Shown: piece by piece, positions 39,897 through 63,879 of the stretch
Position numbering within the stretch: position 1 is the stretch's first letter
How the letters are laid out: each line of letters opens with the position of its first letter
Assembly (NCBI GenBank): GCA_964574815.1
Contig: CAZNPL010000007.1
Coordinates: 51,246-115,245 of the forward strand
Length of the DNA: 64,000 nt
Direction: 5' to 3'
DNA from: an uncultured Phycisphaeraceae bacterium
Lineage (GTDB): Bacteria > Planctomycetota > Phycisphaerae > UBA1845
Translations under genes and position numbers: made by a program
The notes under the pieces: model-generated
What the model saw: the letters and a program-made list of their open reading frames with translations, nothing else
What the model was told of the DNA's origin: nothing
Databases searched by the model: none

Positions 39897-41504
39897 TCAA
39901 TGCGTGGACGCGGCGAGCCGGAGGGCATCCATCGTGCTCTTGATGCGTTCCTCCACGTCACTTCGTGCGGATCGCACAAGATCATCGAGCGCCTCGACGA
40001 CGCGCGGGTCGAATTGTGCGCCGGCCAGCGACTTGATCTCAGCATAGGCCTCGTCAATCGAGCAGCAGGCCCGATAGACCCGATCGGTCGTCATCGCATC
40101 AAACGCGTTGGCCACCAGCAGCACCCGCGAGCCGATCGGGATCTGTTCCCCGCGCAGCCCGTCGGGGTAGCCGGACCCGTTGTAGTGCTCGCCCTGGTGC
40201 CGGATGATGTGCATCTCGCTGTCGAGAATCCGCAGGTAATCGATGATCCGGACGCTGATCGCCGGCACCTGCCGCATGACCATCTCCTCGATGGACGTGA
40301 GCTTGGACGGCTTCATCAGAATGCGGTCCGGAATCCCTACCTTGCCGATGTCGTGCAGCAGGCCCGCGTTCCGTATGCTCACCGACAACGGTTCGCTCAA
40401 CCGAAGACCGCGCGCGATCCGCTCGCTGTAATAAGCCACATTCAGCGAATGCCGCGCAGTGAAGGGGTCCTTCTCCTCCAGCGCCTGCAGCAGCGAGGAA
40501 ACCGTCTGAATGTAGACCTCCTTCGCCTGCACGCTGAGAACGGCGACCTGCTTTCGAAGCCCGTCGACCTCAACCGATTCGATCCCGAACGAGGTCTCAT
40601 CCGTCACGTCCACGGCCGTCGCCACCTGGTTCCGCCCGGTGCTCTTGGCAATGTACAAGGCCCGGTCTGACAGGTCCACCAGATCGGCGGCCGAGCGGAC
40701 CCGCGGATCGTCCGTCGTGGCGATCCCGAACGAAGCGGTCACCTGATAAGCGCCCAGCGCCGGAACCTGCACCTCGTCGGTGATTGCACGGCGAACGCGC
40801 TCGCACAGGACCAGTGCGTCGTCCATCGCCGTCTCCGGAGCCACGATGACGAACTCCTCCCCACCAAACCGCCCGACCGTATCCACCTCCCGCACGCTCT
40901 CACCCAGGATGCGCGCGATCTCGACCAGCGTGTCGTTGCCGACCAGGTGCCCGAACGTGTCGTTGACCGCTTTGAAAAAATCCAGATCAATCATGATGAG
41001 CGAAAGACGGCCGCCGTAACGCCGCGTCCGCTTCACCTCACGATCGATGATGAAGTTCAGATGATCGTGATTGAACAGCCCCGTAAGTCCGTCAGTAACC
41101 GCCGCCCGCCGCAGCCGCTCGTTCACCTCCCACATCCGAATGCCGACGCGAACCCGCGCCCGCAGCGTCGCCGGATCGATCGGCGTCGCCACGTAATCAT
41201 CGACACACTCCTCCAGCGCCCGCGCCCGTTCCTCGGAACCGTGCGCAGGTCCGACCATCAGGAAGAACGTCGCGGTAAGTTCGGCCGACTCGCGAGTGCG
41301 GCGGCAGAGCTGAATAGCGTCGCAACCGGCGACGCTATGGCCGCACACCACGACCTTGGGACGATGCTCGTTGATCGCACTCCAGCCGAGCTCGCCGTCT
41401 TCGGCCCCGCTGCACGCGTAGCCCGCGCCGCTCAAAACCTCGAGCATGTAGCGCCGCTCCGAGGAATTGCCATCTACGATGCAGACGTCGTACACGGTAC
41501 CCAT
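39897..41504 (-). CDS. pseudo-receiver - GGDEF - HD-GYP three-domain c-di-GMP turnover protein
   Basis: 535 aa. It has a REC-like N-terminus, a GGDEF domain with an RxxD I-site (REVD) and GGEEF, and an HD-GYP domain (LLHDIGKVGIPD...HYNGSGYPDGL). Confidence 0.85.
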   Translation of the reverse strand: MGTVYDVCIVDGNSSERRYMLEVLSGAGYACSGAEDGELGWSAINEHRPKVVVCGHSVAGCDAIQLCRRTRESAELTATFFLMVGPAHGSEERARALEECVDDYVATPIDPATLRARVRVGIRMWEVNERLRRAAVTDGLTGLFNHDHLNFIIDREVKRTRRYGGRLSLIMIDLDFFKAVNDTFGHLVGNDTLVEIARILGESVREVDTVGRFGGEEFVIVAPETAMDDALVLCERVRRAITDEVQVPALGAYQVTASFGIATTDDPRVRSAADLVDLSDRALYIAKSTGRNQVATAVDVTDETSFGIESVEVDGLRKQVAVLSVQAKEVYIQTVSSLLQALEEKDPFTARHSLNVAYYSERIARGLRLSEPLSVSIRNAGLLHDIGKVGIPDRILMKPSKLTSIEEMVMRQVPAISVRIIDYLRILDSEMHIIRHQGEHYNGSGYPDGLRGEQIPIGSRVLLVANAFDAMTTDRVYRACCSIDEAYAEIKSLAGAQFDPRVVEALDDLVRSARSDVEERIKSTMDALRLAASTH

Positions 41505-52398: not shown

Positions 52399-53895
52399 AT
52401 GCGATACCATTCCGTGATCAGGCTCCTTCGCGCATCCATGACGGCACTTCTGCTGCCGATCATCGCTGGCGGATGCGGCAATGATCCCTCCATTTTCCTC
52501 GACGCCCGCAACAGCGAGCCGATCGACAGCGCGGACCTCACGCTCGTCGCCCGTTGCGTCCACATTACCGACACCCACGTCATGGACGAGGAATCGCCCG
52601 CTCGGTTCGCCGCCGCCCACATCGTCACCCGCAGCGCCTGGAGACCTTACGAGTGTTTCTCAACGCAACTCTTCGACGGGATCATCCGAACCGCCAACCG
52701 CATTCACGCCGCAGGCCGGACCGTCGACTTCCTCATCCATACCGGCGACGCCTGCGATAACGCCCAGACCAACGAACTCGACTGGATGCTCGGCATCTTC
52801 GACGGCGAACAGATCGACCCGCTCCCCGGACCGGACGACCGACCAACGAACCAGCGCCCCGATCTACTGTTGGACCCGCACGCCACCTTCAAGGCCCAGG
52901 GCCTCTACCGCACAGACCACCACGGCGACGAACCGTCGATCCGGTGGTACACGGTCTTCGGCAACCACGACGCGTTCGCCCAGGGTATCCTGCCCATCTT
53001 TGCCGCCTTCCCGGACCGGCGCATCGCACCGCTTCCCTTCGACGGACGCCCCGGCTTTCTCCTGCCCACGATCTTCGATCCCGTCGGCGCTCTCGCCTAC
53101 GGCCGGGTTACGCCCGCCGATCCCGGACCGCCCCCACTCTTCGCGGTCCCGCGCCCTGTCACCCCGAACCCGGCCCGACGCTTCTTCAACAAACGCGAGT
53201 ACATCGATGCGATGTTCACCACCGTCACCGGCCCGCCGGGGCACGGATTCGACGGCGACGCGCGAACACGCTCCTGGTACAGCGTCGCGCCGGTGCCCGG
53301 CCTCAGACTGATCGGCCTGGATACCTGCGACCCGGCCCACAAGATTCCCGGCCTGCTGTACGACAAGGGCGCGCTATCGCTTTCGCAACGTAACTTCCTG
53401 CAGCAAGCGCTCGAAGCCGCCGAGGAAGCCGGCGAACTCGTTGTCATCGCATCCCACCACCCCACGCGCTACCTCGAGCCTCTGTACGGCACCGCGCTCG
53501 ACGCGCCGCAGTTCCGCAGTTTCCTGAATGGATTCCCAAACGTCGTGGTCCACATCGCCGGCCACTCACACGTCAATCGCGTGTTTGACCGCGGCGGATA
53601 CCTCGAAATCGAAACCTGCTCCACGCTCGATCCGCCGCAGGAAGGCCGCATGATCGAGATCTGGCGCGACGAGACAAACGACACGGTGGTGGTCACCTAC
53701 GAGATGTTCTCCCACCTCGACGACCGACTTCCGCCTCTGGGAGATGATCCCCTCGCCGAGCTGCGCCGGCAGGCGCTCGGCATCGCCGCCGAAGATCCCG
53801 GAGCCAAAACGCGACGACAGATCCTCGATCCCCTCGCCGCCGATACGGCCACAAGCAAGTCAGACCGGCAAGGCCGGATCGTACTTCCGCGGTGA
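52399..53895 (+). CDS. metallophosphoesterase (calcineurin-like) lipoprotein
   Basis: Lipobox LPIIAGGC. Motifs ITDTHVMD, HTGDACDN, FGNHD, SHHP and GHSHVN. The track ORF starts at 52297. Confidence 0.8.
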   Translation: MRYHSVIRLLRASMTALLLPIIAGGCGNDPSIFLDARNSEPIDSADLTLVARCVHITDTHVMDEESPARFAAAHIVTRSAWRPYECFSTQLFDGIIRTANRIHAAGRTVDFLIHTGDACDNAQTNELDWMLGIFDGEQIDPLPGPDDRPTNQRPDLLLDPHATFKAQGLYRTDHHGDEPSIRWYTVFGNHDAFAQGILPIFAAFPDRRIAPLPFDGRPGFLLPTIFDPVGALAYGRVTPADPGPPPLFAVPRPVTPNPARRFFNKREYIDAMFTTVTGPPGHGFDGDARTRSWYSVAPVPGLRLIGLDTCDPAHKIPGLLYDKGALSLSQRNFLQQALEAAEEAGELVVIASHHPTRYLEPLYGTALDAPQFRSFLNGFPNVVVHIAGHSHVNRVFDRGGYLEIETCSTLDPPQEGRMIEIWRDETNDTVVVTYEMFSHLDDRLPPLGDDPLAELRRQALGIAAEDPGAKTRRQILDPLAADTATSKSDRQGRIVLPR

Positions 53896-53910
53896 GCGAT
53901 GCGGGACCGC

Positions 53911-54357
53911 CTACCGGTGCTCAATGACGATGATGTTATCGGGCAGGAACTCGAGGGTTTTGGCCACGTCTTCCCAGTTGAGCTGCCCCGGTCCGCAACC
54001 AGGTCGCGGCAGCAGCGTCTTGGCGTCTCCTACCAGTTGCATCAGCTCGCGGCCGCTACGCTCAATGATCTGAAGACTCGGTCCCGACCACACATACTGC
54101 TGGATCGGGAAGGAAACGATTCCGGGCCGGATGAGATGCACGTGGTTGCCCCGGGAGGTGAGCAGCATCCCCAGGTCCATCTCGATATTGTGGAACTTCT
54201 TCGCCGCCTCGGCCGCGACCCCGGAATCCATGATGGCCGCGCCTTCGTCGTTCGTCGCCCCCGACGTGGGAATGCAGCGGTAATCGGCCCGCTCGATCCA
54301 GAGATTGCAGACTTTCTCTTGCATGGTGCCGATCCGTGCCTCCGCCGCCGCGGGCAT
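53911..54357 (-). CDS. hypothetical protein, possibly macro-domain-like (ADP-ribose binding)
   Basis: 148 aa; the likely start is MQEKV at about 54324. CIPTSGATNDEGAAIMDSGVAAEAAKKF resembles the ICIPTNG...G.aVMGrGvA pattern of some macro-like proteins. This rests on memory only. Confidence 0.35.
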   Translation of the reverse strand: MPAAAEARIGTMQEKVCNLWIERADYRCIPTSGATNDEGAAIMDSGVAAEAAKKFHNIEMDLGMLLTSRGNHVHLIRPGIVSFPIQQYVWSGPSLQIIERSGRELMQLVGDAKTLLPRPGCGPGQLNWEDVAKTLEFLPDNIIVIEHR

Positions 54358-55073
54358 TACCGGACCAGTTAGTATCGGCGATCGGCGCGGCAGGCCTTTG
54401 AAATTGCGGCTTCACACGACCGGCGATCTGGTGCCGATAACCCCGACCCGCGCCCGGCGGCCCTAGACGCGACCGCCGTCGGAGTGCGGACGCCGACGCC
54501 CGAAGCGACGTAAGTCCCGTTGCCACAAGGGCTGACGAGCCAGAAGTATATCGGATCGACGCGCGGCGGCAATCAGGACGAAAGCACGAGTGACAAAAGA
54601 GCCCCAGACAATGCCGGGATCGTGAGCAAGAGCAACCCGGCCCCTCGGTGTCCCGCCGCTCCGGCAAACCCCTTTCGCCTTAACTCGGCGGTCTGCCCCC
54701 GGCGCCAACAGATGGCCCCGAATCTCGAGCATGAGACTGGGCAAAGCCAGGTGCGCCGCCGGTGCTGTCCGTAACTCGATCTGCCGATCGAGGTCATCTC
54801 CACCCTCACGGCGCCGTGATCAGTTTCCCCAGGTTACGCCACTTACCAATCTTACTACTTACGGACATTTGGGCGTAGCCTGAAGCGGCAAGCGCGACTA
54901 CAACGCGAAAGTGAGCCGGCGATCGGCGGAGGCGGCGTTGGATGGGGCGATATGACGACCCGAACGTCCATCACCGAGGTGCTGTGCCCGTATTCCAGGG
55001 CATCCGGCAAACGTCGGAGGGATTATGACCACACGGCGGTGAGAGGTTGAAAGGTTCAGACCAAGGTGCGGGT

Positions 55074-56075
55074 TTAGCCTTGCTCGTTCGACGCTACCGG
55101 CCTGACGCGGCCCTCCAGACCGATGGCCGGCGACCGATCCGAGCCGGCCGAGGCATCAATCACCGCCTCGAAGATCCGGTAGCTCGATGCGGCATCGATA
55201 CCGGGAGCTGCCCGCTCAACGTGGCCCCGCAGGGTGACCTTGCCGTCCCGGCTCCGAAACACAATCCGCGTACCGATCGCGACGTCTGCCGAATCGCGCT
55301 CGGGTCTGGCGAAGCGTATGAGCAATTCCTTGTCACTGATGATGCGCACGACCGGAACCTCCGGGCCGACCACAGCGCCGCTCTGCTGATAAACGCCGGC
55401 CACGGCCCCCTCGAACGACGCCCTCACCTTGCAGTCGTCAAGCAATCGGCCCAGGTTGTCGACCTTCGCCGAAGCCTGCTCCGCGCGAGCTTCGGCTACT
55501 TTGACATTCTGCGCAGCAACGTCGCGAGCATGCTCGGCCTGCGTTGCTTCCCGCTCCGTCTTACTGGCCTCACTGAGGTCCTCCAGCCGATCGCAGTGCT
55601 CCTGCGCATCGGCAAGATTCAATCTGGCGATCTCGACGTCGGACGTGGCCTCTCGCATTGCCGCCTCCGCCGCCTTGAGTTCCGCCTCGATGGAGCCTTT
55701 CTCAAGAATGGCCACAACCTCACCCGGCGAGACTCGATCTCCCAGTCCAACTCGAAGTCCTTCGAGCCGCCCCTCGATCCTGGGTGCGAGGTCCACCGTT
55801 CGCCTGGGCACGACAACACCGACGAACCCCTCATCAAGCCAGTCAAGATGGTCGGCTTCCACCTCAATCCCTGCCGGTTGCCGCTTGGTCCCCTCACCGC
55901 GACCCCCTCCGGACGGAGTCGAACCCTCACCTGCGAAAAGACACGGGCACCACGCCATCAGACCCAACGCCACCACGGTCCGCAACGTGCGCGGGTCGGA
56001 TCCGGATTGCCGTGCCGCGGGACCCTCCCCCCGGTTGTCGCATCTTGCTGTTTTGGTACGAAGTAAAGTGAACAT
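55074..56075 (-). CDS. HlyD/RND-type periplasmic adaptor (membrane fusion) protein
   Basis: It has a lipoyl-like hairpin (APRIEGRLEGLRVGLGDRVSPGEVVAILE), a coiled coil, and a beta-barrel (VRASFEGAVAGVYQQSGAVVG). I prefer the ATG at 56075 (MFTLLRTK...) because the track start at 56150 lies inside the upstream terminator hairpin. Confidence 0.75.
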   Translation of the reverse strand: MFTLLRTKTARCDNRGEGPAARQSGSDPRTLRTVVALGLMAWCPCLFAGEGSTPSGGGRGEGTKRQPAGIEVEADHLDWLDEGFVGVVVPRRTVDLAPRIEGRLEGLRVGLGDRVSPGEVVAILEKGSIEAELKAAEAAMREATSDVEIARLNLADAQEHCDRLEDLSEASKTEREATQAEHARDVAAQNVKVAEARAEQASAKVDNLGRLLDDCKVRASFEGAVAGVYQQSGAVVGPEVPVVRIISDKELLIRFARPERDSADVAIGTRIVFRSRDGKVTLRGHVERAAPGIDAASSYRIFEAVIDASAGSDRSPAIGLEGRVRPVASNEQG

Positions 56076-56112
56076 GGTTCGACGATCCTGACAGGCGTTG
56101 CTCACCACCGCA

Positions 56113-56148
56113 AAAAACGACCGGAGCGGCACGGTCGCCGCTCCGGTC
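56113..56148 (-). terminator. intrinsic terminator after peptide gene 1
   Basis: Minus-strand GACCGGAGCGGC-GACCGU-GCCGCUCCGGUC, a perfect 12-bp stem followed by GUUUUUU. It starts 15 nt after the peptide stop. Confidence 0.8.
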
Positions 56149-56162
56149 ACTCATGCTCGTGA

Positions 56163-56336
56163 TCACACGGGCAGCACGCGGTAGAGCGTCGGATCCTCTT
56201 CGTCGGTCGGCGGCTCTGCCGGCTGCTCATTGATCGGGTCATACTCCTGGGGCTTGTCGTGCCCGCCGCACACCTGCTCCAGTTCCCGGTGCCCCAACTC
56301 GCGCCACAGTTCCTTCTCATTCTTGTGCGAAAACAT
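56163..56336 (-). CDS. double-glycine-leader peptide 1 (57 aa; not in ORF track, below its size cut-off)
   Basis: My own translation: MFSHKNEKELWRELGHRELEQVCGG/HDKPQEYDPINEQPAEPPTDEEDPTLYRVLPV*. The leader fits the GG-leader consensus, with hydrophobic residues at -4, -7, -12 and -15 (V, L, L, W) and Glu at -8. SD sequence AAGGAUGG lies upstream. Confidence 0.75.
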   Translation of the reverse strand: MFSHKNEKELWRELGHRELEQVCGGHDKPQEYDPINEQPAEPPTDEEDPTLYRVLPV

Positions 56337-56486
56337 TGTTCCATCCTTTCGGGTCCTGTTTGAGACCGCCTTGTCCCGGCCTCGCTTTCACTTGAACCGG
56401 CGGACCACCCGCCGGCGTTGTTCGTTTTCCGGTTTTGCGGCTCGAAGTTGCCCTTCTTCTCGCCCCCGAGGCCCGTTCGCCCCGGT
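56337..56486 (-). promoter_or_regulatory. conserved structured 5' leader, copy 1
   Basis: About 150 nt between the predicted -10 element and the peptide 1 ATG. By eye it aligns at roughly four-fifths identity with copy 2. It contains the hairpins CCGGGGC-GAACGG-GCCUCGG, CCGGCGG-GUGGU-CCGCCGG and GAGGCCG-N8-CGGUCUC. Confidence 0.55.
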
Positions 56487-56492
56487 TCACCA

Positions 56493-56523
56493 CGTATACG
56501 CAATCCGCCGCAAAACCTGTCGG
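56493..56523 (-). promoter_or_regulatory. promoter of peptide gene 1 (shared box)
   Basis: Minus strand CCGACA-N19-TATACG. The architecture and the TTGCGTATAC core match those at 57082-57112 and 60553-60583. Confidence 0.5.
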
Positions 56524-56672
56524 CGCAAGGTGGTTTTTTGCCGGAGCCCGGGCCGCGGCCGATGGCACGGAATCAGTCGCAAGGTATCGATTTACTTTAT
56601 CGAAATGCGTTCAAAAACCACGGGATCGAATGGGCGAGTGACGGGGCCGCCGCGGACGCGGCAATGGATGGC

Positions 56673-56711
56673 AAGAAAGAAGACGGGAGCGGGGGGTGCT
56701 CCGCTCCCGTC
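56673..56711 (-). terminator. intrinsic terminator after peptide gene 2
   Basis: Minus-strand GACGGGAGCGG-AGCACCCC-CCGCUCCCGUC, a perfect 11-bp stem followed by UUCUUUCUU. Confidence 0.75.
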
Positions 56712-56737
56712 AGCCGCATGGATCCTTGCAGGAGGCT

Positions 56738-56926
56738 CTACAAGGCCCATACGCGGACAACGTCCGTCTCTTCCTGCTCGAAGCCGTCCGTGGCGGAGCC
56801 CTCCGAAGGATTGCCCTCGTCGATCGGGTCGTACTTCTTCGCAACGGTGAGACCGCCGCAGACTTGCTCGAGTTCATCCTGACAAAGCGCGTGCCACACA
56901 TTCTTCTGAGTTCTTCCGGTGGACAT
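56738..56926 (-). CDS. double-glycine-leader peptide 2 (62 aa)
   Basis: This uses the internal ATG of track ORF 56738..57079. Translation: MSTGRTQKNVWHALCQDELEQVCGG/LTVAKKYDPIDEGNPSEGSATDGFEQEETDVVRVWAL*. It has the same ELEQVCGG leader end and the same SD context (GAAAGGAUGGAACAAUG) as peptide 1. Confidence 0.75.
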   Translation of the reverse strand: MSTGRTQKNVWHALCQDELEQVCGGLTVAKKYDPIDEGNPSEGSATDGFEQEETDVVRVWAL

Positions 56927-57075
56927 TGTTCCATCCTTTCGATCCCTTTGGGGCCGACGTGCCCCGGTCCCGCTTTCACTTGAACCGGCGGACCATCCGC
57001 CGGCATCGCTCGCTTTGCAGTTCTTCGGCTCGAAGTTGCGTCTCTTCTCGCCTCCCGAGGCCCATTCGCCCCGGT
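56927..57075 (-). promoter_or_regulatory. conserved structured 5' leader, copy 2
   Basis: Paralogous to 56337-56486. It differs from copy 1 by 1-nt and 2-nt indels, so no reading frame is shared between the two copies. Confidence 0.55.
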
Positions 57076-57081
57076 TCACCA

Positions 57082-57112
57082 GGTATACGCAACCGACCGC
57101 CCGATCTGTCCC
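57082..57112 (-). promoter_or_regulatory. promoter of peptide gene 2 (shared box)
   Basis: Minus strand GGGACA-N19-TATACC. The spacer GATCGGGCGGTCGGTTGCG is nearly identical to the one upstream of hlyD. Confidence 0.5.
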
Positions 57113-57332
57113 CGCAACATCGTTTTTTGCGGATCCTGCGCTTCTTGCATAAACGCAATGGCATCGCAGTACAGTCTACTTGACACCGTACCAAGAATGG
57201 ACGGCTGAACCGCGCAGGACCGGATCCGCGGTTCGCGGGAGTACGGCGACGCTGAAGGCTTGCAGACACTCTAAATGAGGAAGGAAGTGCGGCGGAATGC
57301 CTTTGCCCGGCGGACGACGCCGCTCAGGCCGC

Positions 57333-59546
57333 TTACTGGACCTGTGCGGCCACGAGCCGTGCGTACGAGCCGTGCCGCTCCAGAAGCTCTTCGTGCGTGC
57401 CGCGCTCGACGAGGCGGCCGTTCTCCATCACCAGGATAAGATCGGCGTGCATCACCGTGCTCAAGCGGTGTGCGATGATGATCCGGGTGCACTCGAGTCG
57501 TTCCAGATGGCGCTGGATACGCTCTTCGTTGACGCCGTCCAAAGCGCTCGTTGCCTCATCCAACAGCAACACGGCCGGGCGCCGGACCAAGGCGCGGGCC
57601 AGGGCGATGCGCTGCCGCTGCCCCTCGGAAAGAGACGCGCCGCGATCGGCCAGCACGGTGTCATATCCCATGGGCATCGCCGCGATCTCCTCGTGAATCC
57701 CGGCCAGCCGGGCCGCGGACATCACCACACCCAAAGGCAGCGTCGGGTCGGCCAGCGCAATGTTCTCGCGGATCGTTCCGGCGAACAGATGCGGCTGCTG
57801 CGGCACGACACCCAGCTGCTGCCGCAGCGACCGGGCATCCAGCCTGCTCGCATCGACGTCATCGTACAGCACCCGTCCAGATGTCGGCCGGTAAAGCTGC
57901 AGCATCAGGCGGGCCAGCGTGGACTTGCCCGCCCCGGACGGGCCGACGATGGCCACCGTCTTGCCAGGCCGGATGTCCACGCTCACGTCCTTCACCACCG
58001 GCTCGGCAGTCGACGTGTGAGAAAACGACACGTTCTCGATGGTAATGCGGCCTCGAAGCCGCTCGGCCCGCTTCACCTTATCAGGCTCCTGCTCGAGCGG
58101 CGCCTGCAGGACGTCGTCGATGCGATCGGTGTATCCCTTCAGCAGTTGCAGCTTGAACGCGGTCGCCACCAGCGTGCCCAGCGGACGCAGGAATCCGGCC
58201 GCCAGCGCCGTCAGCCCGAGCATCGTCCCCAGCGTCAGCTCACCCTCGAGCACCTGCGCCGCTCCGAAGCCGAGAATCAGCAGCGGCGAACCGATCTGAA
58301 GCGTCGAGGAGATCGACTCGACCCACGTCGAGAGCCGCCCGCGCCGCAAGTGCACGTTCATCTCGTCCACATACAGATTGGAGAGCCGCTCCAGGGCACG
58401 GTCCTCCGCCCCGAGAACCTTCAGTGTCTCCATGCCCGACAGCATCTCGGAAAGGTAGCTCTGCGATCGGGCCTGCACCTGAAGGTGCTCGCTCATGAGC
58501 CGCTGGTAAGTCCGCCTCCAAGCAACAAAGACCCCGACCTGCAGCAGCCCGACCGCAACCACCAGCAGCGCCATCGGCGGCGACAGCACGAACATCAAGA
58601 GCAAGTAGGCGCACACCAGCCCGCCGTCCAGCAGCCCCGAAACCGTGCCCGACGTGAGGATCTCGCGGATCGTCGCATTGCTGTTGAACCGCATCATCAG
58701 ATCGCCGGTCGGCCGGCGCTGGAAGAACGCATAGGGCAGTTGCACCAGATGGCTGATGAAATTCAGCGTCATCTGCACGTTCAGGTGCGTCCGCAGATGC
58801 AACAGCAGCCGCCCGCGCACCAGCGCCGACAGAAAGCTGAAGAACACCACGCACCCGAACCCGGCCGCCAGCGTCGTCATCAGCCCGTAGTCCGAGCGGG
58901 GAATCACCCGATCCACCAGCACCTGCGTCATCACCGGAAGCGCCAATGCGAACACCTGGATCAGCAACGACGTGATCACGACCCGCGACAGCAGCCCGCG
59001 ATGGGCGAGCACCTGTCGAAAGTGCCACCGGGACGGGGCGGCGCCGGGTGCGGACGTTTCAAACCGGTCTCCCGGCTCAAACGTAAGCGCCACGCCGGTG
59101 AACGAACGACGCAGCTCGTCAGAACTGACGCGGCGTCGCCCAACGGCAGGATCGTAAACATCCTCCCCGTCCCGATGGGCCTTCTCGTGAACGACAAAGT
59201 GGTTCAGGTTCCAGTGCAGGATCGAGCCGGCCGGCAAGTACTTGAGGTCCTCGACCTCGATCCGGACGCCGCGGCCGCGAAGGCCATAATCGCGGCCGGC
59301 CTTCAACAGAGACTGGGCGCTGACGCCGTCGCGGGCCGTCCCCGTCCGCTGGCGAACGTCGTCCAGCACCACGGACTTTCCGTGGTAGCCGAGAGTCATC
59401 GTCAGGCATGCGGCACCGCAGTCGGTTGGGGTCAACGCCTCCACAAACGGGATGCGACCGCAGCGGCCGTTGTGCTCCAACCGCCCGATGGCCGGGAATC
59501 TCCGCCGAAGAGACGGTGCTTTATTTTTCGCTAGCGTCGTCGTCAT
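57333..59546 (-). CDS. peptidase-containing ABC transporter (PCAT): C39 peptidase domain + ABC exporter
   Basis: 737 aa. The C39 domain has catalytic Cys (LTPTDCGAACLTM), His (HWNLNHFVVHE) and Asp (VYDPAVG). This is followed by 6 TM segments, Walker A GPSGAGKST, signature LSEGQRQR, Walker B LLLDEATSALD and the H-loop AHRLS. Confidence 0.9.
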   Translation of the reverse strand: MTTTLAKNKAPSLRRRFPAIGRLEHNGRCGRIPFVEALTPTDCGAACLTMTLGYHGKSVVLDDVRQRTGTARDGVSAQSLLKAGRDYGLRGRGVRIEVEDLKYLPAGSILHWNLNHFVVHEKAHRDGEDVYDPAVGRRRVSSDELRRSFTGVALTFEPGDRFETSAPGAAPSRWHFRQVLAHRGLLSRVVITSLLIQVFALALPVMTQVLVDRVIPRSDYGLMTTLAAGFGCVVFFSFLSALVRGRLLLHLRTHLNVQMTLNFISHLVQLPYAFFQRRPTGDLMMRFNSNATIREILTSGTVSGLLDGGLVCAYLLLMFVLSPPMALLVVAVGLLQVGVFVAWRRTYQRLMSEHLQVQARSQSYLSEMLSGMETLKVLGAEDRALERLSNLYVDEMNVHLRRGRLSTWVESISSTLQIGSPLLILGFGAAQVLEGELTLGTMLGLTALAAGFLRPLGTLVATAFKLQLLKGYTDRIDDVLQAPLEQEPDKVKRAERLRGRITIENVSFSHTSTAEPVVKDVSVDIRPGKTVAIVGPSGAGKSTLARLMLQLYRPTSGRVLYDDVDASRLDARSLRQQLGVVPQQPHLFAGTIRENIALADPTLPLGVVMSAARLAGIHEEIAAMPMGYDTVLADRGASLSEGQRQRIALARALVRRPAVLLLDEATSALDGVNEERIQRHLERLECTRIIIAHRLSTVMHADLILVMENGRLVERGTHEELLERHGSYARLVAAQVQ

Positions 59547-60480
59547 GGCTCAATCCCTTTACCGCGGGCAATAGCGTGCTGATCATGCGCTCCGTCCGGA
59601 CGCGGGCCTCGGCCCGAGCCACCATGCCGTCGTGGTACCGGTAAGTCCGGCCATCGGCCTCGAACGTGTCGCCGGGCAGCGTCGCCCGCACGATCACGAC
59701 CGATGCCGGAAGCTCGACCGCATCGGCGATTCCGGGATCCAGGAGCCGCCGGGCCTCCTTCGGGCCGATCACCTCGTCGGCGACGAGGTCGATCGTGACG
59801 TCCTGGTACGCGTACTTGTAACCGTCCAGCTCGATCCGCAGCTCCTGCCCCTCGCGAAGCATCGGACGGTCCTCACCCGGGAGCAGGGCCTCGATCGAGT
59901 AGGCCGCGTCTTCGTGGATCACCGAAAGGATGATGTCGCCGGGCTGAACGTGCTGCCCGGGCCGAACGCGGACGTCGCTGATCCGGCCGGCCCGCGGGGC
60001 CCGCACCGTGCGCTCGCGAAGCCGCGACTCGGCAAAGGTCCGCTCCGTCTCGAGGGTGCCGACCGCTCGGGCAGCCGACTCGTTGTTGGGGTCTCGCAGG
60101 TAGGCGACGAGCTGCGTCTCGATGTTGTCGCGGATGCGGGTCAGCTCCGCACGCTCGGCGGCGTCGTCGAACCGCACCAGAAGCTGTCCTTTGGTCACGC
60201 GCTCGCCCGGGCGAACCTCCACGGCGCCCACGGTGCCGGGCGACTTGGCCGGCAGGATGGTGCGGCCGGAGCACCGGACGAAAGCGGGCCCGGCGGCCCA
60301 CTGGGGGTTGGGCGCCAGGACGACGAAGCCGACCATGACGACGACGGCCGCCACAACCACCCAGTACGTCCTGGCGATCCAGGCGGGAGAGAGCCGCAAC
60401 ACGTCGCCGTCGGCCTTCTGTCCCATGGTATGGTGCCTGACGGCCTCAGTGCGGAACAGGTTGGCGATCGGTGCGGACAT
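59521..60480 (-). CDS. HlyD family secretion adaptor (CvaA/LcnD type)
   Basis: I prefer the ATG at 60480 (MSAPIANLFRTEAVRHH...) preceded by GAAGG. It has a single N-terminal TM segment, a coiled coil and a barrel. The track start at 60549 would lie at or upstream of the predicted transcription start. The gene overlaps the PCAT gene by 26 nt. Confidence 0.8.
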   Translation of the reverse strand: MSAPIANLFRTEAVRHHTMGQKADGDVLRLSPAWIARTYWVVVAAVVVMVGFVVLAPNPQWAAGPAFVRCSGRTILPAKSPGTVGAVEVRPGERVTKGQLLVRFDDAAERAELTRIRDNIETQLVAYLRDPNNESAARAVGTLETERTFAESRLRERTVRAPRAGRISDVRVRPGQHVQPGDIILSVIHEDAAYSIEALLPGEDRPMLREGQELRIELDGYKYAYQDVTIDLVADEVIGPKEARRLLDPGIADAVELPASVVIVRATLPGDTFEADGRTYRYHDGMVARAEARVRTERMISTLLPAVKGLSHDDDASEK

Positions 60481-60552
60481 CGGAATCGACCTTCTGGCAT
60501 AATCGTCGGTCTCGCAGAGTCCAGGCCGGAAGTCCAACGCTCCAGCCACCGA

Positions 60553-60583
60553 GATATACGCAAAACCGACCCGAATCTGTCAC
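60553..60583 (-). promoter_or_regulatory. promoter of the hlyD-PCAT operon (shared box)
   Basis: Minus strand GTGACA-N19-TATATC with a TTTGCGTATAT core. This is the third copy of the box found upstream of both peptide genes. Confidence 0.5.
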
Positions 60584-60738: not shown

Positions 60739-62154
60739 TTAAAGACCCGGAAGGAAGGCGATTCGGACTTCATCCTCGGTGACGAGGACCTGGCCGATGA
60801 GGCGGCCGTCGGCCCGGGCAACGACGGCGGCCCCATGCCACTGCTCGTCCAGCGGGACCAGCGGGTCTACCGTCCAGTACTCCTTTGCCGGAGTCAGGCG
60901 GGCGGCGGACAGCGGAATCGGAGCCGCGACCGGGTCGCCCACGATAATACAGTCCTCAGGGACCTCGGGCGTGCGGATCAGGCGACGAGGCCACACAGGT
61001 CCCTCCAGTTCGACGCCGATCAGAGCCAATCCGCCGCCGGACCAGACCGTCTCGGCCGGAATGGACACGTGCCGGCCGGCGACCTCGAGTGCCATCGAGC
61101 CGGCCTCCGCCTCTTGCTCGACGTCGTCCGGCCGCAGCAGGTCGGCCGGTCCGAGCAGGCCTCGGTCGGTCAGCAGGACCCAGCCGCGCCGCGAGTGCTC
61201 TCCCTTGAACCAGCGCCCCTCGCGCCACGCGGTCACGGCGCGCATGGGCGATGGCACGGTCGCGCCGGCGGGCAGCAGCGAGCTTCCGACGGCGATGAGC
61301 GGCTGCCATTCGAGCCACTTTTCCTCCGGCTCATTTACTAACGTAAACCGATGCCCGGTCAGGACGACATCGCCGGCGTCGGGCGGAGTCGCCAGCGCGA
61401 CGCCTCCGGCCAGCAGCGCCTTGAGCGATTTGACGTCAAGGGAAAGTCCCTTGAGGCCGACCTGGGCCTCGAAGCCCCCAATCTGCCAGAACCGCGTCTG
61501 CGGCCGGATGAGCTGCGTGTAGGCCTTCTGGATGTGCACGCGGGCCTCGACCGCGCCGCCGTCGCTGGTCAGACCGGTCGACAGCACCTTGCCGATCGGA
61601 ACCTCACGGTAAAGCACCGGGGCGCCGGGCGTCAGGCCCCTGCGCTCCGGAGCCTGCAAAATGATCTCCAGATCGCCAGGGTCGAACGACTCGACGATCG
61701 GCGGCCGGGGCAGCCCCAGAAACGCTCGCCGCGGCTCGCCGTCCCCAGGCGACAACGCGATGTACCGCGGCCCCACCAGCGTCTCGAGACCGGCCACCCC
61801 GGTCAAATCGAGTTGCGGCCGCACGATCCAGAAGCGCGTACCGGCCACAGCAAGCGGGCCGGCATCCGGCTGCAGCGCCGCAATCACCCGGATGCCCTCG
61901 CGGTCGCGGGCCAGCTCGACTGAGCGGACCGCACCAACCGTGATGCCCCGATAACGAACATCCGCGCCCGGCTCGACACCGTGCCCTTCTTCAAAGTGAA
62001 TCGCGATGAGGTGGCCACGCTCCAGCCAGCTCTGGTAGCCGATCCACCCGGCCAGCAACAGCGCCAGCGCCGGGATCAGCCAGAACCACGAAAGCCGCCG
62101 CTCAGGACGAAGGCTCGCCTGGGGGATGTCCTGTTGCGGATCGGTCGCGGTCAT
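60739..62154 (-). CDS. pqiB: PqiB/MlaD (MCE-domain) family protein
   Basis: The start ATG at 62154 overlaps the pqiA stop (ATGA). N-terminal TM segment LSWFWLIPALALLLAGWIGY. Repeated MCE-like segments (VRYRGITVGAVRSVEL; VLYREVPIGKVLST; ...). I discount the track ORF's extension to 62820. Confidence 0.8.
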   Translation of the reverse strand: MTATDPQQDIPQASLRPERRLSWFWLIPALALLLAGWIGYQSWLERGHLIAIHFEEGHGVEPGADVRYRGITVGAVRSVELARDREGIRVIAALQPDAGPLAVAGTRFWIVRPQLDLTGVAGLETLVGPRYIALSPGDGEPRRAFLGLPRPPIVESFDPGDLEIILQAPERRGLTPGAPVLYREVPIGKVLSTGLTSDGGAVEARVHIQKAYTQLIRPQTRFWQIGGFEAQVGLKGLSLDVKSLKALLAGGVALATPPDAGDVVLTGHRFTLVNEPEEKWLEWQPLIAVGSSLLPAGATVPSPMRAVTAWREGRWFKGEHSRRGWVLLTDRGLLGPADLLRPDDVEQEAEAGSMALEVAGRHVSIPAETVWSGGGLALIGVELEGPVWPRRLIRTPEVPEDCIIVGDPVAAPIPLSAARLTPAKEYWTVDPLVPLDEQWHGAAVVARADGRLIGQVLVTEDEVRIAFLPGL

Positions 62155-62882
62155 GGTCGAGCCTCGTTCGACGGCGCGGCAGACGCCGTTTGGTCCGTGT
62201 CCGACGCCGGCCTCACCGGGTCCTGGCCGGGATCGCCCGCCTGCGGCTCGGATTGCCAGAGCACGTGCGGATCGAAGACGGCCGCGGCCAGCAGGCTCAG
62301 CAGCACACACAGAGTAAAGGCCAGCGCCGCCGGGCCGGCTTTCACCTCCATGAAATCGCCGATTTTCAGCACCGCCACCAGGATTGCCACCAGCAACACG
62401 TCGAGCATGCCCCATCGACCGGTCCACTCGACGACATGGTAGGTCAGTGCCCGGTGGCGATGCCGCAGAAACGGTCCGCCGGCCGACAGGATGAGCAGCG
62501 AGATCAGCTTCCCGAGCGGCAGGACCACCGAGCAGAGGCCGACGATCGCCGCGACGAAAACATGGCCCGAGGCGAACAGGGCCGAGACGCCTTCGAGGAC
62601 GCTCGAGTCGGTGTGGTGGCCGAACCGCTCGACGCCGATCATCGGCAGCGTGACCGCCAGCGGGTAGAGGATCAAAGCGGCCAACGCCACCGCGGCCGTC
62701 CGACTGTTCGACCGCCGGGCGGTCCCGGGCTGGGGCAACCGGCTCCCGCAACGTGAGCAGCACGCCCGCATCCCCCGAGGCACAACCGGCATGGACTGAA
62801 TAAGCCCGCAGGTAGTGCAAACGCGGATGGCGTTGTTTGCGGCTGCCGGTGCGGCCGGAATGGATCGGCTGTCAGCGTTCAT
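62151..62882 (-). CDS. pqiA: PqiA (paraquat-inducible protein A) family membrane protein, single-module form
   Basis: Zinc-ribbon CTTCG...CSRCG, then TM segments with YPLAVTLPMIGVERFG and GRWGMLDVLLVAILVAVLK. I prefer the start MNADSRS at 62882. Confidence 0.75.
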   Translation of the reverse strand: MNADSRSIPAAPAAANNAIRVCTTCGLIQSMPVVPRGMRACCSRCGSRLPQPGTARRSNSRTAAVALAALILYPLAVTLPMIGVERFGHHTDSSVLEGVSALFASGHVFVAAIVGLCSVVLPLGKLISLLILSAGGPFLRHRHRALTYHVVEWTGRWGMLDVLLVAILVAVLKIGDFMEVKAGPAALAFTLCVLLSLLAAAVFDPHVLWQSEPQAGDPGQDPVRPASDTDQTASAAPSNEARP

Positions 62883-63879
62883 GGTCTTGCCCGGACGGCC
62901 AGACTCCGGGCCCCGATCAACGCGCGAGATGATACCCGAGGAACCGGTCGATGGCAGGTGGGAAGAGAGTAGAGGCACGGAGCCGCGCGGGCACGAAGAA
63001 ACTGCTCGTCGTTGGTCTGCGATCTCTCGTCCAAAGAAGGCTTACCGGCGCCCTTTCCTCAAAACTGATAACTGAGGTCTGACGACCCTCTGGTCCTATA
63101 ACAACCCCCTGCCGAACATGCAGCAGCCCGTTCAACTTTTTCGAGAAAATCTTGAACACCCCTCGTGTTCTTTAGGTGCAAACAAGAAGCGCACCCTCCG
63201 TGCGCACCTGCGCAGAGAACGACGGATGAAAGCACAATGCCAGGCCAGCCCAAACGCAGAGCGAGTCGTCGGTTGTCAATTGTCAGTTACCAGCCCGCCG
63301 CTGTCAGAGCCAGGAACGCCAGCGACCGGTACCCACGTGCCGGCCGCGTCCCGGCGGCCGGCGCCAAACAAACCCACCGAAACCCCAAAATCTGCGTCAA
63401 TCCGCGGAGTTTGCGGATCGCATTTCCAAACGAACCCAAACTCGTGGAGTCCCGTACGCCGGCACTTCCCCGCCTTCCAGCCCTCGCGTCAGAGCCGGGA
63501 ACACCAAAGACCGGTCCCGAAGCGTCAGAAGCGTCTCGACCGCCCGCGCCAAACGAACCCAACGCCGCGCGAGTCATCAGTTATCAGATGTCCACCCTGG
63601 ACGCCACCCGACCCCTCGAACCGCGGCCTGCCAGCCACCCCCCGGACAACCAAAAACCAAACGAAGCCACCACGGCCGTCAGCTACCCAGGGCCGTTCCG
63701 CTGGCAAGCCTCCGTGCCTCCGTGCCTCTTATTTCCAAACGAACCCACCAAGCCTCCAGAATCCGCGAATTGCCCCTGTCTCGTTTCTGCTGGTCTCCTC
63801 TCTGCCCCCTCCATGCACTGGCCCGACCACGCCCGAACCCCTAAAATCCCCGGACGTTCGGGTCCGAGGACGCCTGCTT

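What the first reader, a model, noticed from the sequence alone, without database searches (positions are those of the whole stretch)
55074..60583. PCAT/HlyD export locus with two tandem double-glycine-leader peptides whose mature parts are anionic, Pro-rich and Cys-free
Seen in sequence:
- A CvaA-like adaptor (59521-60480) and a C39-peptidase ABC exporter (57333-59546) with intact Cys/His/Asp catalytic residues sit directly upstream of two small genes.
- The ORF track largely misses these two genes (56738-56926 and 56163-56336).
- Both peptides end their N-terminal halves in ELEQVCGG. Hydrophobic residues at -4, -7, -12 and -15 and Glu at -8 match the classical double-glycine leader cleaved by C39 domains.
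- The predicted released parts are HDKPQEYDPINEQPAEPPTDEEDPTLYRVLPV and LTVAKKYDPIDEGNPSEGSATDGFEQEETDVVRVWAL. Each has about 9 acidic versus 2-3 basic residues and no Cys.
- They share a YDPI(N/D)E motif 6-7 residues after the cleavage site and a hydrophobic (Y/V)RV(L/W)xx C-terminus.

Established knowledge: class II bacteriocins and most GG-leader cargo are cationic/amphipathic or Cys-containing RiPP precursors.

Inference:
- No modification enzyme, immunity gene or two-component sensor is adjacent.
- These may therefore be unmodified secreted signalling or effector peptides of a type I-like export system in a planctomycete-like host.
- I am not aware of any described equivalent.
Basis: partly seen in the sequence, partly recalled or inferred. 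Interest (0 to 1): 0.82.

Follow-up and report, generated by a model that had tools for sequence, protein, structure and literature searches.

The report
Exported acidic peptide pair with transporter
A soil planctomycete carries an ordinary type of peptide-export pump followed by two small genes for unusually acidic, cysteine-free peptides; each peptide gene has its own strongly conserved upstream leader, and their function is unknown.

Summary
On the minus strand lie a CvaA-like adaptor, a C39-peptidase ABC exporter (PCAT), two small genes with canonical double-glycine leaders (…LEQVCGG), and a second adaptor-like gene.

Both small genes look translated:
- strong ribosome-binding site;
- codon bias matching the genome;
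- dN/dS about 0.4 between the paralogues;
- intact syntenic orthologues on two soil-metagenome contigs.

The host is a Phycisphaerae planctomycete.

- Each peptide gene is a self-contained cassette: a roughly 205-nt non-coding leader, the ORF, and its own intrinsic terminator. The leaders differ by only 15-18%, while synonymous sites are near saturation (pS 0.6).
- A bipartite motif, GACAGNT-N11-TTGCGTATA, occurs exactly three times in 64 kb: before the transporter operon and before each peptide. This suggests co-regulation.
- The peptidase keeps Cys/His/Asp but has Ala in place of the conserved oxyanion-hole Gln.
- A second adaptor gene follows the peptides.

No immunity, modification or sensor gene is nearby. 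The cores are predicted to be disordered.

Acidic GG-leader cargo is not unprecedented: RaxX is one case, and unannotated Undibacterium peptides are another.

Verdict: a new cargo family in a known kind of export system, with a candidate new regulatory leader. Function is unresolved. Moderate interest.

The parts
60555..60581 (-). Promoter-like bipartite motif GACAGAT-N11-TTGCGTATA, 75-100 nt upstream of the adaptor start codon. It reads as a -35-like GTGACA, a 19-nt spacer and a -10-like TATATC.
   Evidence: The motif has exactly three matches in 64 kb on both strands, against 0.01 expected by chance. All three are on the minus strand in front of this locus's transcription units.
59521..60480 (-). 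Adaptor 1: a CvaA/HlyD-like membrane-fusion protein of 319 aa. Its stop overlaps the PCAT start by 26 nt.
   Evidence: Pfam HlyD_3 1.4e-14 and NCBIfam type_I_hlyD 1.5e-17. Orthologues at 43-53% identity lie directly upstream of the PCAT in L083-L087.
57333..59546 (-). Peptidase-containing ABC transporter (PCAT), 737 aa.
   Evidence: Pfam Peptidase_C39, ABC_membrane and ABC_tran. The best NCBIfam hit is TIGR03796 at 630 bits, below its 853-bit cutoff. A soil-metagenome orthologue, P0008, is 94% identical; the next relatives are about 60%.
59070..59447 (-). C39 peptidase domain (residues 34-159). Cys43, His116 and Asp132 are present. Ala37 replaces the conserved oxyanion-hole Gln.
   Evidence: Aligned to LahT150 (6MPZ) and PCAT1. 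Nearly all of about 120 relatives have Gln at -6 from the Cys; this protein and its 94% orthologue have Ala. PCAT1 Q15 is the proposed oxyanion hole (PMC6959990).
56927..57130 (-). Leader A: conserved non-coding region before pepA. It holds the promoter-like motif (57084-57110) and a 5' UTR of about 155 nt with predicted hairpins and a GAAAGGATGG Shine-Dalgarno sequence.
   Evidence: 82-85% identical to leader B. Base composition is flat across codon positions. No Rfam match. Consensus fold.
56738..56926 (-). pepA: a 62-aa precursor with a 25-aa GG leader and a 37-aa acidic core.
   Evidence: The orthologue P0004 is 63% identical and sits in the same synteny.
56682..56711 (-). Intrinsic terminator after pepA: an 11-bp G+C-rich stem followed by a U-rich tail.
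   Evidence: z-score -3.4.
56337..56541 (-). Leader B: conserved non-coding region before pepB. The promoter-like motif lies at 56495-56521.
56163..56336 (-). pepB: a 57-aa precursor with a 25-aa GG leader and a 32-aa acidic, Pro-rich core.
   Evidence: The orthologue P0003 has 47 of 57 residues identical and sits in the same synteny.
56111..56148 (-). Intrinsic terminator after pepB: a 12-bp stem (16 pairs in the minimum-energy fold), a 6-nt loop and a U6 run. It lies upstream of the adaptor-2 start codon.
   Evidence: (-38.3 kcal/mol, z-score -5.3) and the sequence.
55074..56075 (-). Adaptor 2: an HlyD/RND_mfp-like protein of 333 aa. The likely start is the ATG at 56075. The GTG at 56150 lies inside the terminator stem.
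   Evidence: Pfam HlyD_3 1.2e-10 and NCBIfam RND_mfp at 94.7 bits against a 94.9 cutoff. A 38%-identical orthologue lies directly after the PCAT in L083.

Best explanation
This is a type-I-like peptide export locus of a soil Phycisphaerae planctomycete.

**Layout**
- An operon encodes a CvaA-like adaptor and a PCAT.
- Two autonomous cargo cassettes follow, and then a second adaptor-like gene.
- Each cassette has a promoter-like motif shared with the transporter operon, a structured 5' UTR of about 155 nt, a strong ribosome-binding site, a GG-leader ORF and its own intrinsic terminator.

**Shown here**
- The gene architecture.
- The canonical leader.
- The catalytic Cys/His/Asp.
- Purifying selection on both peptides.
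- Conservation of the cassettes in relatives.
- Much stronger conservation of the leaders than of synonymous sites.

**Inferred**
- The 62- and 57-aa precursors dock through their amphipathic leader helix (hydrophobic residues at -4, -7, -12 and -15) in the C39 domain.
- They are cut after Gly25.
- They are pumped out by the PCAT with its adaptor(s) and an unlinked outer-membrane channel.
- This would release unmodified, disordered, strongly acidic peptides of 37 and 32 residues.
- The released peptides carry two conserved ends: Y-D-x-[IV]-x-E near the N-terminus and a short hydrophobic tail.
- Transporter and cargo are switched on together through the shared promoter or operator.
- The long leader adds a cargo-specific post-transcriptional layer, such as mRNA stability or translational control.

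**Least certain**
- The released peptides probably act outside the cell as signals or non-lytic effectors (about 0.35-0.4) rather than as membrane-active bacteriocins.
For: **Transporter**
- Domains and catalytic residues.

**Leader match**
- The leader fits the -4/-7/-12 rule stated for LahT and PCATs (PMC10885120).
- Invariant columns across five family members are W-15, L-12, L-7, E-6, Q-5, V-4, C-3, G-2, G-1, Y+7, D+8, E+12 and P+15.

**Coding evidence**
- GC3 is 0.75 and 0.83 in the peptide frames against a flat 0.62 in the leaders.
- dN/dS is 0.41, with pS 0.60.
- Gene callers called both ORFs on independent contigs.

**Synteny in relatives**
- A JGI soil contig carries HlyD, a 94%-identical PCAT, a 62-aa gene, a 57-aa gene and HlyD. 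Its spacers are 391, 406 and 87 nt, against 406, 401 and 87 nt here.
- A third contig has spacers of about 395 nt.

**Cassette structure**
- The leaders are 82-85% identical over about 200 nt, while synonymous sites are about 60% different.
- Terminators follow each ORF.
- The shared bipartite motif occurs three times, against 0.01 expected.

**Leader fold**
- Four hairpins are shared.
- No difference between the copies breaks a predicted pair, and two pairs show compensatory changes.
- Differences fall in 8 of 91 paired columns and 22 of 85 unpaired columns. This comparison is circular, because the fold was predicted from the same two copies.

**Peptide cores**
- AlphaFold finds only the leader helix, with mean pLDDT 55.8.
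- No transmembrane immunity ORF is present.
- No modification enzyme or sensor gene lies nearby.
Against: - There is no expression, cleavage or secretion data.
- The conserved oxyanion-hole Gln is Ala37, so the peptidase may be slow or need compensation.
- No outer-membrane factor gene is in the window.
- The role of adaptor 2 is unknown. It sits behind a strong terminator without the shared motif.
- The family is known from only three closely related lineages, comprising five peptides. Leader DNA exists only as two paralogous copies, so the RNA structure has almost no covariation support.
- Gene conversion limited to the leaders could mimic selection.
- No receptor or sensor gene is linked, which weakens the signalling idea.
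- The promoter reading needs an unusual 19-nt spacer, and the sigma-70 scan found no promoter on this strand.
Confidence: 0.6

Rival explanations
1. The peptides are unmodified class II microcin-like antibacterial toxins. Self-protection would come from an unrecognised or unlinked immunity gene.
For: - The adaptor + PCAT + tandem GG-leader peptide layout matches Gram-negative class II microcin loci (PMC12219008).
- pepA diverges fast. Its orthologue is 63% identical while the PCAT is 94% identical.
- P0005 looks like a recombinant of pepB-like and pepA-like halves. This is typical of competition loci.
Against: - No small transmembrane ORF lies next to the peptides. The only hydrophobic candidate, 54573-54809, is an Arg-rich, doubtful ORF beyond adaptor 2.
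- The cores have net charge -6 and -7, are Pro/Glu/Asp-rich and are predicted disordered. They lack the Gly/Ala-rich hydrophobic stretches seen in the microcin-like hits.
Confidence: 0.2
2. The peptides are RiPP precursors modified by enzymes encoded elsewhere. The most attractive case is sulfation of the invariant Tyr, making them RaxX-type sulfatyrotides.
For: - Tyr+7 and Asp+8 are invariant within an acidic, Pro-rich context in all five family members.
- RaxX is likewise a GG-leader peptide, sulfated on a Tyr just after the cleavage site and exported by a PCAT plus adaptor (PMC6637879).
- PCATs serve sulfatyrotides (PMC10885120).
- The 60%-identical PCAT relative in L084 exports Cys-rich peptides encoded next to a LanC-like gene.
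Against: - No sulfotransferase or any other RiPP enzyme was found among the roughly 40 window proteins scanned, or in the 20-kb annotated neighbourhood.
- In Xanthomonas, raxST is part of the cluster.
- The peptides give no Pfam or NCBIfam hit.
- The Tyr is at +7, not +2.
Confidence: 0.12
3. The conserved leaders have no function of their own. They look conserved only because gene conversion keeps the two upstream regions alike, or because only the promoter matters.
For: - Only two paralogous copies could be compared, 589 nt apart in direct orientation. That favours conversion.
- The structure support is circular.
- No Rfam family matches.
Against: - Conversion would have to stop exactly at the start codons, where identity drops sharply.
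- The differences that do exist avoid or preserve predicted pairs.
- Intergenic spacer lengths of about 400 nt are kept in two further lineages.
- Part of the leader is shared with the unlinked site upstream of the transporter operon.
Confidence: 0.15
4. The small ORFs are chance reading frames and are not translated.
For: They have no database annotation or family hit, and only five sequences are known.
Against: - The ribosome-binding site, codon bias, dN/dS of 0.41 and in-frame indels all point to coding.
- The leader motif is invariant in all five members.
- Orthologues lie in conserved synteny.
Confidence: 0.02

Closest known systems
Class II microcin export loci (CvaA/CvaB with microcin V and relatives)
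   Same: - Found in a diderm host.
- A membrane-fusion adaptor gene is translationally coupled to a PCAT.
- Small precursors carry a 15-25-aa GG leader.
- The outer-membrane channel is unlinked.
   Different: - There is no adjacent membrane immunity gene.
- The cores are acidic, Pro-rich and disordered rather than Gly/Ala-rich and hydrophobic.
- Each peptide has its own long conserved leader and its own terminator.
- A second adaptor gene is present.
RaxX-RaxSTAB of Xanthomonas (sulfatyrotide)
   Same: - A hydrophilic, Pro-rich, non-bacteriocin GG-leader peptide.
- It is processed and exported by a PCAT (RaxB) with an adaptor (RaxA).
- A conserved Tyr lies next to Asp near the new N-terminus.
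   Different: - No sulfotransferase gene is nearby.
- No similarity to RaxX/PSY was detected through the family libraries; no direct sequence comparison was run.
- The Tyr is at +7, not +2.
- The host is a soil planctomycete, not a plant pathogen.
ComC/ComAB and BlpC-type peptide pheromone systems
   Same: - Short unmodified GG-leader peptides cleaved and exported by a PCAT.
- The mature part diverges fast between close relatives.
   Different: - No histidine kinase or response regulator is adjacent.
- The peptides are anionic rather than cationic.
- The host envelope is diderm and the locus has adaptors.
- The ComC Pfam model gives only E 0.1, and only for one orthologue.
LahT-type and lanthipeptide-associated PCAT clusters, including relative L084 (60% identical PCAT)
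   Same: - The C39 domain is most similar to LahT150 (E 1.5e-28).
- The order is the same: adaptor, PCAT, then several tandem GG-leader peptide genes separated by long spacers.
   Different: - The L084 peptides are Cys-rich, match Pfam Lant_leader_dom and sit next to a LanC-like gene.
- The window peptides have no Cys in their cores and no such enzyme nearby.
NHLP/Nif11 export cassette (TIGR03794/03796/03797)
   Same: The PCAT's best NCBIfam model is TIGR03796.
   Different: - The score is below the cutoff (630 against 853 bits).
- There is no second ABC subunit.
- The leaders are short classical GG leaders, not NHLP or Nif11.

Membership tests
PCAT / GG-leader peptide export system | N-terminal C39 peptidase domain with the catalytic Cys and His (plus Asp) | tested here: met
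   Pfam PF03412 at 6.7e-29. Cys43, His116 and Asp132 align with LahT150 and PCAT1.
PCAT / GG-leader peptide export system | Conserved oxyanion-hole Gln six residues before the catalytic Cys | tested here: not met
   The residue is Ala37 here and in the 94% orthologue. It is Gln in the great majority of about 120 relatives. Its role is taken from PCAT1 Q15 (PMC6959990). The residue is highly conserved rather than strictly defining.
PCAT / GG-leader peptide export system | ABC transmembrane domain plus nucleotide-binding domain in the same polypeptide | tested here: met
   PF00664 at 5e-38 and PF00005 at 1.5e-35.
PCAT / GG-leader peptide export system | Nearby substrate with a GG/GA/GS cleavage motif and hydrophobic residues at -4, -7 and -12 | tested here: met
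   Both peptides have Val -4, Leu -7, Leu -12 and Trp -15. These columns are invariant in all five family members. The rule is stated in PMC10885120.
PCAT / GG-leader peptide export system | Membrane-fusion adaptor encoded alongside (diderm hosts) | tested here: met
   An HlyD-family gene overlaps the PCAT start. A second one lies downstream.
PCAT / GG-leader peptide export system | Demonstrated leader cleavage and ATP-dependent export | not testable with these tools
   This needs biochemistry or genetics.
Class II microcin | Adjacent small inner-membrane immunity protein | tested here: not met
   No credible transmembrane ORF lies in 53800-57400. The criterion is taken from PMC12219008.
Class II microcin | Antibacterial activity of the mature peptide | not testable with these tools
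   The composition (net charge -6 and -7, disordered) argues against membrane activity but proves nothing.
Sulfatyrotide (RaxX type) | Tyrosylprotein sulfotransferase gene in the cluster | tested here: not met
   No sulfotransferase domain was found among the neighbours or among the roughly 40 window proteins scanned.
Sulfatyrotide (RaxX type) | Tyr in an acidic context shortly after the GG site | tested here: inconclusive
   Tyr+7 and Asp+8 are invariant, but the position differs from RaxX Tyr-41 at +2. No sulfation predictor was available.
NHLP/Nif11 bacteriocin export cassette | PCAT above the TIGR03796 cutoff, a partner ABC (TIGR03797) and an NHLP/Nif11 leader | tested here: not met
   The score is 630 bits against a cutoff of 853. 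No second ABC gene is present. The peptides hit no NCBIfam model.
Lanthipeptide precursor | Cys plus Ser/Thr core, a lanthipeptide leader domain and a LanM/LanC enzyme | tested here: not met
   The cores have no Cys. There is no PF28317 hit even at E 10 and no LanC/LanM gene nearby.
GG-leader peptide pheromone (ComC/BlpC type) | Cognate histidine kinase and response regulator encoded next to the peptide | tested here: not met
   The nearest response regulator, a GGDEF/HD-GYP protein at 39897-41504, is 15 kb away. The nearest kinase, at 26511-28184, is 28 kb away.

The most novel reading that the evidence does not exclude
The two acidic peptides would be the first peptide-based extracellular signals, or a new non-lytic effector class, in Planctomycetota. 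The roughly 155-nt structured leader before each peptide gene would be a new cis-regulatory RNA. With the promoter motif shared by the transporter operon, it would form a self-contained regulatory circuit for peptide release.
Probability: 0.15. Interest if true: 0.7.

Novelty: new member of a known kind. Interest (0 to 1): 0.4.

Why it matters
Planctomycetes are poorly understood in cell-cell interaction, and I found no report of a peptide signal or microcin from them in the two literature searches I ran. This locus gives two short, synthesisable candidate exported peptides with defined predicted ends. It also gives a transporter to knock out and a compact promoter-plus-leader element that reporter fusions could test.

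More broadly, GG-leader cargo next to PCATs includes strongly acidic, cysteine-free, disordered peptides in several phyla. This cargo type is not covered by the bacteriocin, RiPP or pheromone categories.

The natural Gln-to-Ala change in the oxyanion hole is a ready-made test of how much that residue matters in C39 peptidases.

Tried and rejected
**Searches that found nothing**
- Rfam on the locus at E up to 1 and on the whole window at gathering scores found nothing in the leaders.
- Pfam, NCBIfam and PADLOC gave no family for the peptides. The PADLOC hits for the PCAT are generic ABC ATPase matches.
- An nhmmer profile of the leader found no copy in about 85 PCAT-relative loci. The bipartite motif is also absent from them.
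- The sigma-70 consensus scan found no promoter on the minus strand. I checked sigma-54 and ECF patterns by eye and rejected them.

**Data that could not be obtained**
- The DNA of the two JGI contigs carrying the orthologues could not be fetched. No orthologue-level dN/dS or RNA covariation could be computed.
- The genome-collection scan with the PCAT did not contain the source genome. Its best hits are only 41-56% identical and come from other phyla.

**An error corrected**
- My first regex scan for GG peptides placed the hydrophobic position wrongly and would have missed even the window's own peptides. It was redone.

**Readings rejected**
- *N-terminally extended peptide.* An upstream in-frame extension of pepA (GTG at 57079) was rejected. 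The same upstream frame is out of phase with pepB because of a 2-nt indel, and the differences there are mostly non-synonymous.
- *Upstream small ORF.* A 29-codon uORF in leader A is not conserved; its ATG is ACG in leader B.
- *Recent horizontal transfer.* The base composition shows no anomaly.
Full report
**1. What is in the sequence**

All genes of the finding lie on the minus strand.

- The adaptor gene (59521-60480) matches HlyD_3 and type_I_hlyD.
- It overlaps by 26 nt the start of a 737-aa PCAT (57333-59546). The PCAT carries Peptidase_C39 (6.7e-29), ABC_membrane and ABC_tran.
- The C39 domain is most similar to the solved LahT150 protease domain (6MPZ, E 1.5e-28) and to PCAT1. Cys43, His116 and Asp132 align with their catalytic residues.
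- Read directly from the sequence, both leaders have Val -4, Leu -7, Glu -8, Leu -12 and Trp -15 before Gly-Gly.
- The cores have 9 acidic residues against 3 (pepA) or 2 (pepB) basic ones. Neither has Cys. Tyr-Asp-Pro-Ile starts at +7 in both.
- A second HlyD/RND_mfp-like gene (55074-56075) follows.

**2. Are the small ORFs genes?**

Yes, on five grounds.

- Each has a GAAAGGATGG Shine-Dalgarno sequence five bases before the ATG.
- Their frames show the genome's codon signature: GC3 of 0.75 and 0.83, and GC2 of 0.41 and 0.34. The flanking leaders are flat at about 0.62.
- Between the two paralogues, synonymous sites are near saturation (pS 0.60, dS about 1.2). Non-synonymous change is lower, with dN/dS of 0.41 overall, 0.30 in the leader and 0.52 in the core. 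The duplication is therefore old, and both copies have been kept under purifying selection.
- In the whole window these are the only believable GG-leader ORFs.
- Relatives exist. A word-indexed search of 5.8 billion proteins and a full HMMER scan of 1.84 billion representatives found three further family members.

The three relatives are:

- P0004, a 62-aa pepA orthologue at 63% identity.
- P0003, a 57-aa pepB orthologue with 47 of 57 residues identical.
- P0005, 62 aa, whose leader and N-terminal core resemble pepB while the rest resembles pepA.

P0004 and P0003 lie on one 4280-nt contig of a very large soil metagenome. Its gene order is HlyD, PCAT, 62-aa gene, 57-aa gene, HlyD. The intergenic spacers are 391, 406 and 87 nt, against 406, 401 and 87 nt here. 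That PCAT is 94% identical to the window's. P0005 lies on a second contig with spacers of about 395 nt on both sides.

Thirteen columns are invariant in all five peptides besides the start Met and a Val near the C-terminus: W-15, L-12, L-7, E-6, Q-5, V-4, C-3, G-2, G-1, Y+7, D+8, E+12 and P+15. Indels are in frame. The two other hits of the HMMER scan are long repeat proteins and are spurious.

**3. Host and context**

- The enolase in the window is 80-84% identical to enolases named Phycisphaerae or Phycisphaerales. The 'planctomycete-like' guess is right.
- The window is ordinary chromosome. It carries a trp operon, enolase, kinases, an iron or B12 ABC importer and PqiA/MlaD.
- The locus shows no compositional anomaly.
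- Apart from the 94% orthologue, the PCAT's nearest relatives are only about 60% identical. Where named, they belong to Myxococcota and Acidobacteriota.
- In the species-representative genome collection the best hit is 56% identical, from a Dormibacteria genome.
- Within 10 kb there is no sulfotransferase, LanM/LanC, radical-SAM, cyclodehydratase, histidine kinase or response regulator.
- There is no credible small membrane protein that could serve as an immunity factor.

**4.

*(a) Conserved leaders.* Each peptide gene is preceded by about 205 nt that are 82-85% identical between the two copies (56927-57130 and 56337-56541).

- This is far better conserved than the coding regions that follow. 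It is three to four times less diverged than synonymous sites.
- The region is not coding. The only frame open in both copies is out of phase with pepB because of a 2-nt indel. The differences in it are mostly non-synonymous. The ATG of a 29-codon uORF in copy A is ACG in copy B.
- Rfam has no match.
- A consensus fold gives four shared hairpins inside a long-range helix. None of the 30 differences breaks a predicted pair, and two pairs change on both sides.
- Differences fall in 8 of 91 paired columns and 22 of 85 unpaired columns. The fold was derived from the same two sequences, so this is only suggestive.

*(b) Separate terminators.* Each ORF is followed by its own strong intrinsic terminator: 56682-56711 (z -3.4) and 56111-56148 (z -5.3). 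The peptides are therefore separate transcription units. Adaptor 2 most likely starts at the ATG at 56075, not at the GTG inside the terminator stem.

*(c) Shared promoter-like motif.* The 5' part of each leader contains GACAGNT-N11-TTGCGTATA.

- The motif occurs exactly three times in the 64-kb window, against 0.01 expected.
- The third copy lies at 60555-60581, about 75-100 nt upstream of the adaptor-1 start codon.
- It can be read as a -35-like nnGACA, a 19-nt spacer and a -10-like TATAYN.
- Whatever binds there, the transporter operon and both cargo genes share it. This points to co-regulation.
- The remaining roughly 155 nt would be a cargo-specific 5' UTR.

*(d) Oxyanion-hole change.* The residue six positions before the catalytic Cys is Gln in nearly all of about 120 relatives. 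In PCAT1 it is the 'highly conserved Q15', proposed to form the oxyanion hole (PMC6959990). Here and in the 94% orthologue it is Ala37, preceded by Glu36. I therefore expect a slower but working peptidase. This is untested.

*(e) Origin of the arrangement.* Relatives show how the layout may have arisen.

- L083 (PCAT 60% identical) has adaptor 1, PCAT and adaptor 2 with only 32 nt between the last two.
- L084 (60%) has adaptor 1 and PCAT followed by four Cys-rich GG-leader peptides, each after a long spacer, and then a LanC-like gene.
- Peptide cassettes therefore appear to be swapped in and out behind a conserved adaptor-PCAT core.

**5. How it most likely works**

*Shown:* the architecture, the leader match, the catalytic triad, selection on the peptides, and conservation of the cassettes and of the shared motif.

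*Inferred:*

- The leader helix is the only element AlphaFold predicts: residues 16-22, with mean pLDDT 55.8 for the whole peptide. It would dock in the C39 groove.
- The peptide would be cut after Gly25 and passed through the PCAT-adaptor complex and an unlinked outer-membrane channel.
- This would release disordered peptides of 37 and 32 residues with net charge -6 and -7.
- The conserved Y-D-x-[IV]-x-E segment and the hydrophobic tail (VRVWAL or YRVLPV) are the likely contact points with a partner. The acidic middle tolerates substitution, mostly Asp/Glu exchanges in the pepB orthologue.

Such peptides are poor candidates for membrane-active bacteriocins, and no immunity gene is present. 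I therefore favour an extracellular signal or non-lytic effector at about 0.35-0.4. The alternatives are a microcin-like toxin (0.2) and a precursor modified by an unlinked enzyme, such as Tyr sulfation (0.12). The rest is unknown.

**6. Comparison with known systems**

The locus meets the defining features of a PCAT/GG-peptide export system, apart from the oxyanion Gln. It fails the tested defining features of each functional subclass:

- Class II microcins: no immunity gene.
- RaxX-type sulfatyrotides: no sulfotransferase.
- NHLP/Nif11 cassettes: the score is below the cutoff, there is no second ABC subunit, and the leader is of the wrong type.
- Lanthipeptides: no Cys and no Lan enzyme.
- ComC-type pheromones: no adjacent two-component system.

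The claim that acidic GG cargo has no equivalent is too strong. RaxX is a hydrophilic, Pro-rich, non-bacteriocin example (PMC6637879). A corrected scan of about 85 PCAT-relative loci also found acidic cores:

- Undibacterium L061 and L072: net charge -8, no Cys.
- Thermomonas L081: net charge -12.
- Several others.

The same scan found His/Arg-rich, Gly-rich and Cys-rich cargo too, so GG cargo is very diverse.

**7. Verdict**

This is a real, well-defined locus of a known kind with a new, very narrowly distributed cargo family. The cargo is known from three closely related soil lineages. The locus also carries an unexpectedly constrained regulatory leader. The most original element is the leader together with the shared promoter motif, not the peptide chemistry. 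Interest is moderate (0.4). Function remains open and is directly testable with synthetic peptides and reporter fusions.

Noticed in passing
window 11744-13543 (-): A group II intron. Rfam group-II-D1D4-6 scores 197 bits at 13323-13543, directly upstream of a 525-aa reverse-transcriptase ORF at 11744-13321.
   Followed up: partly
window 59436-59438 (codon of Ala37 of the PCAT): The oxyanion-hole Gln, conserved in nearly all of about 120 relatives, is Ala here and in the 94% orthologue. A few other relatives have Thr, Leu or Gly at this position but usually keep a Gln one residue earlier.
   Followed up: partly
P0005 (JGI 3300042731, 1609-nt contig): This third family member looks chimeric. It has a pepB-like leader and N-terminal core, a pepA-like acidic C-terminal half, and a different tail (IISVSTR). 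That suggests recombination between cassettes.
   Followed up: no
L061 4071-4241 and L072 2782-2952 (Undibacterium); L081 4246-4560 (Thermomonas): Strongly acidic GG-leader peptides lie next to PCAT relatives. The Undibacterium cores have net charge -8 and no Cys; the Thermomonas core has net charge -12. They are unrelated in sequence to the window peptides.
   Followed up: no
L005 3358-3525 and L006 5058-5225: GG-leader peptides with extremely His/Arg-rich cores (for example WDNGDHGHHKKRHRRRHRRHGHDD) lie upstream of PCATs that are 50-51% identical to the window's.
   Followed up: no
L084 3667-6572: A 60%-identical PCAT is followed by four tandem Cys-rich GG-leader peptides (three of the four match Pfam Lant_leader_dom) and a LanC-like gene. 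This looks like an uncharacterised lanthipeptide-like cluster.
   Followed up: partly
window 60739-62978 (-): PqiA and MlaD/PqiB-like genes lie immediately upstream of the export locus on the same strand, 258 nt from adaptor 1. A functional link is unknown.
   Followed up: no
window 53911-54357 (-): A 148-aa protein has no Pfam family and only faint similarity to macro-domain proteins (OARD1, YmdB; E 0.1-0.5). It is probably unrelated to the locus.
   Followed up: partly
window 56581-56681 and 57131-57332 (-): The spacer parts outside the conserved leaders are not similar to each other. They contain short palindromes, for example TCGATAAAGTAAATCGA at about 56587-56603. I saw this by eye only.
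   Followed up: no
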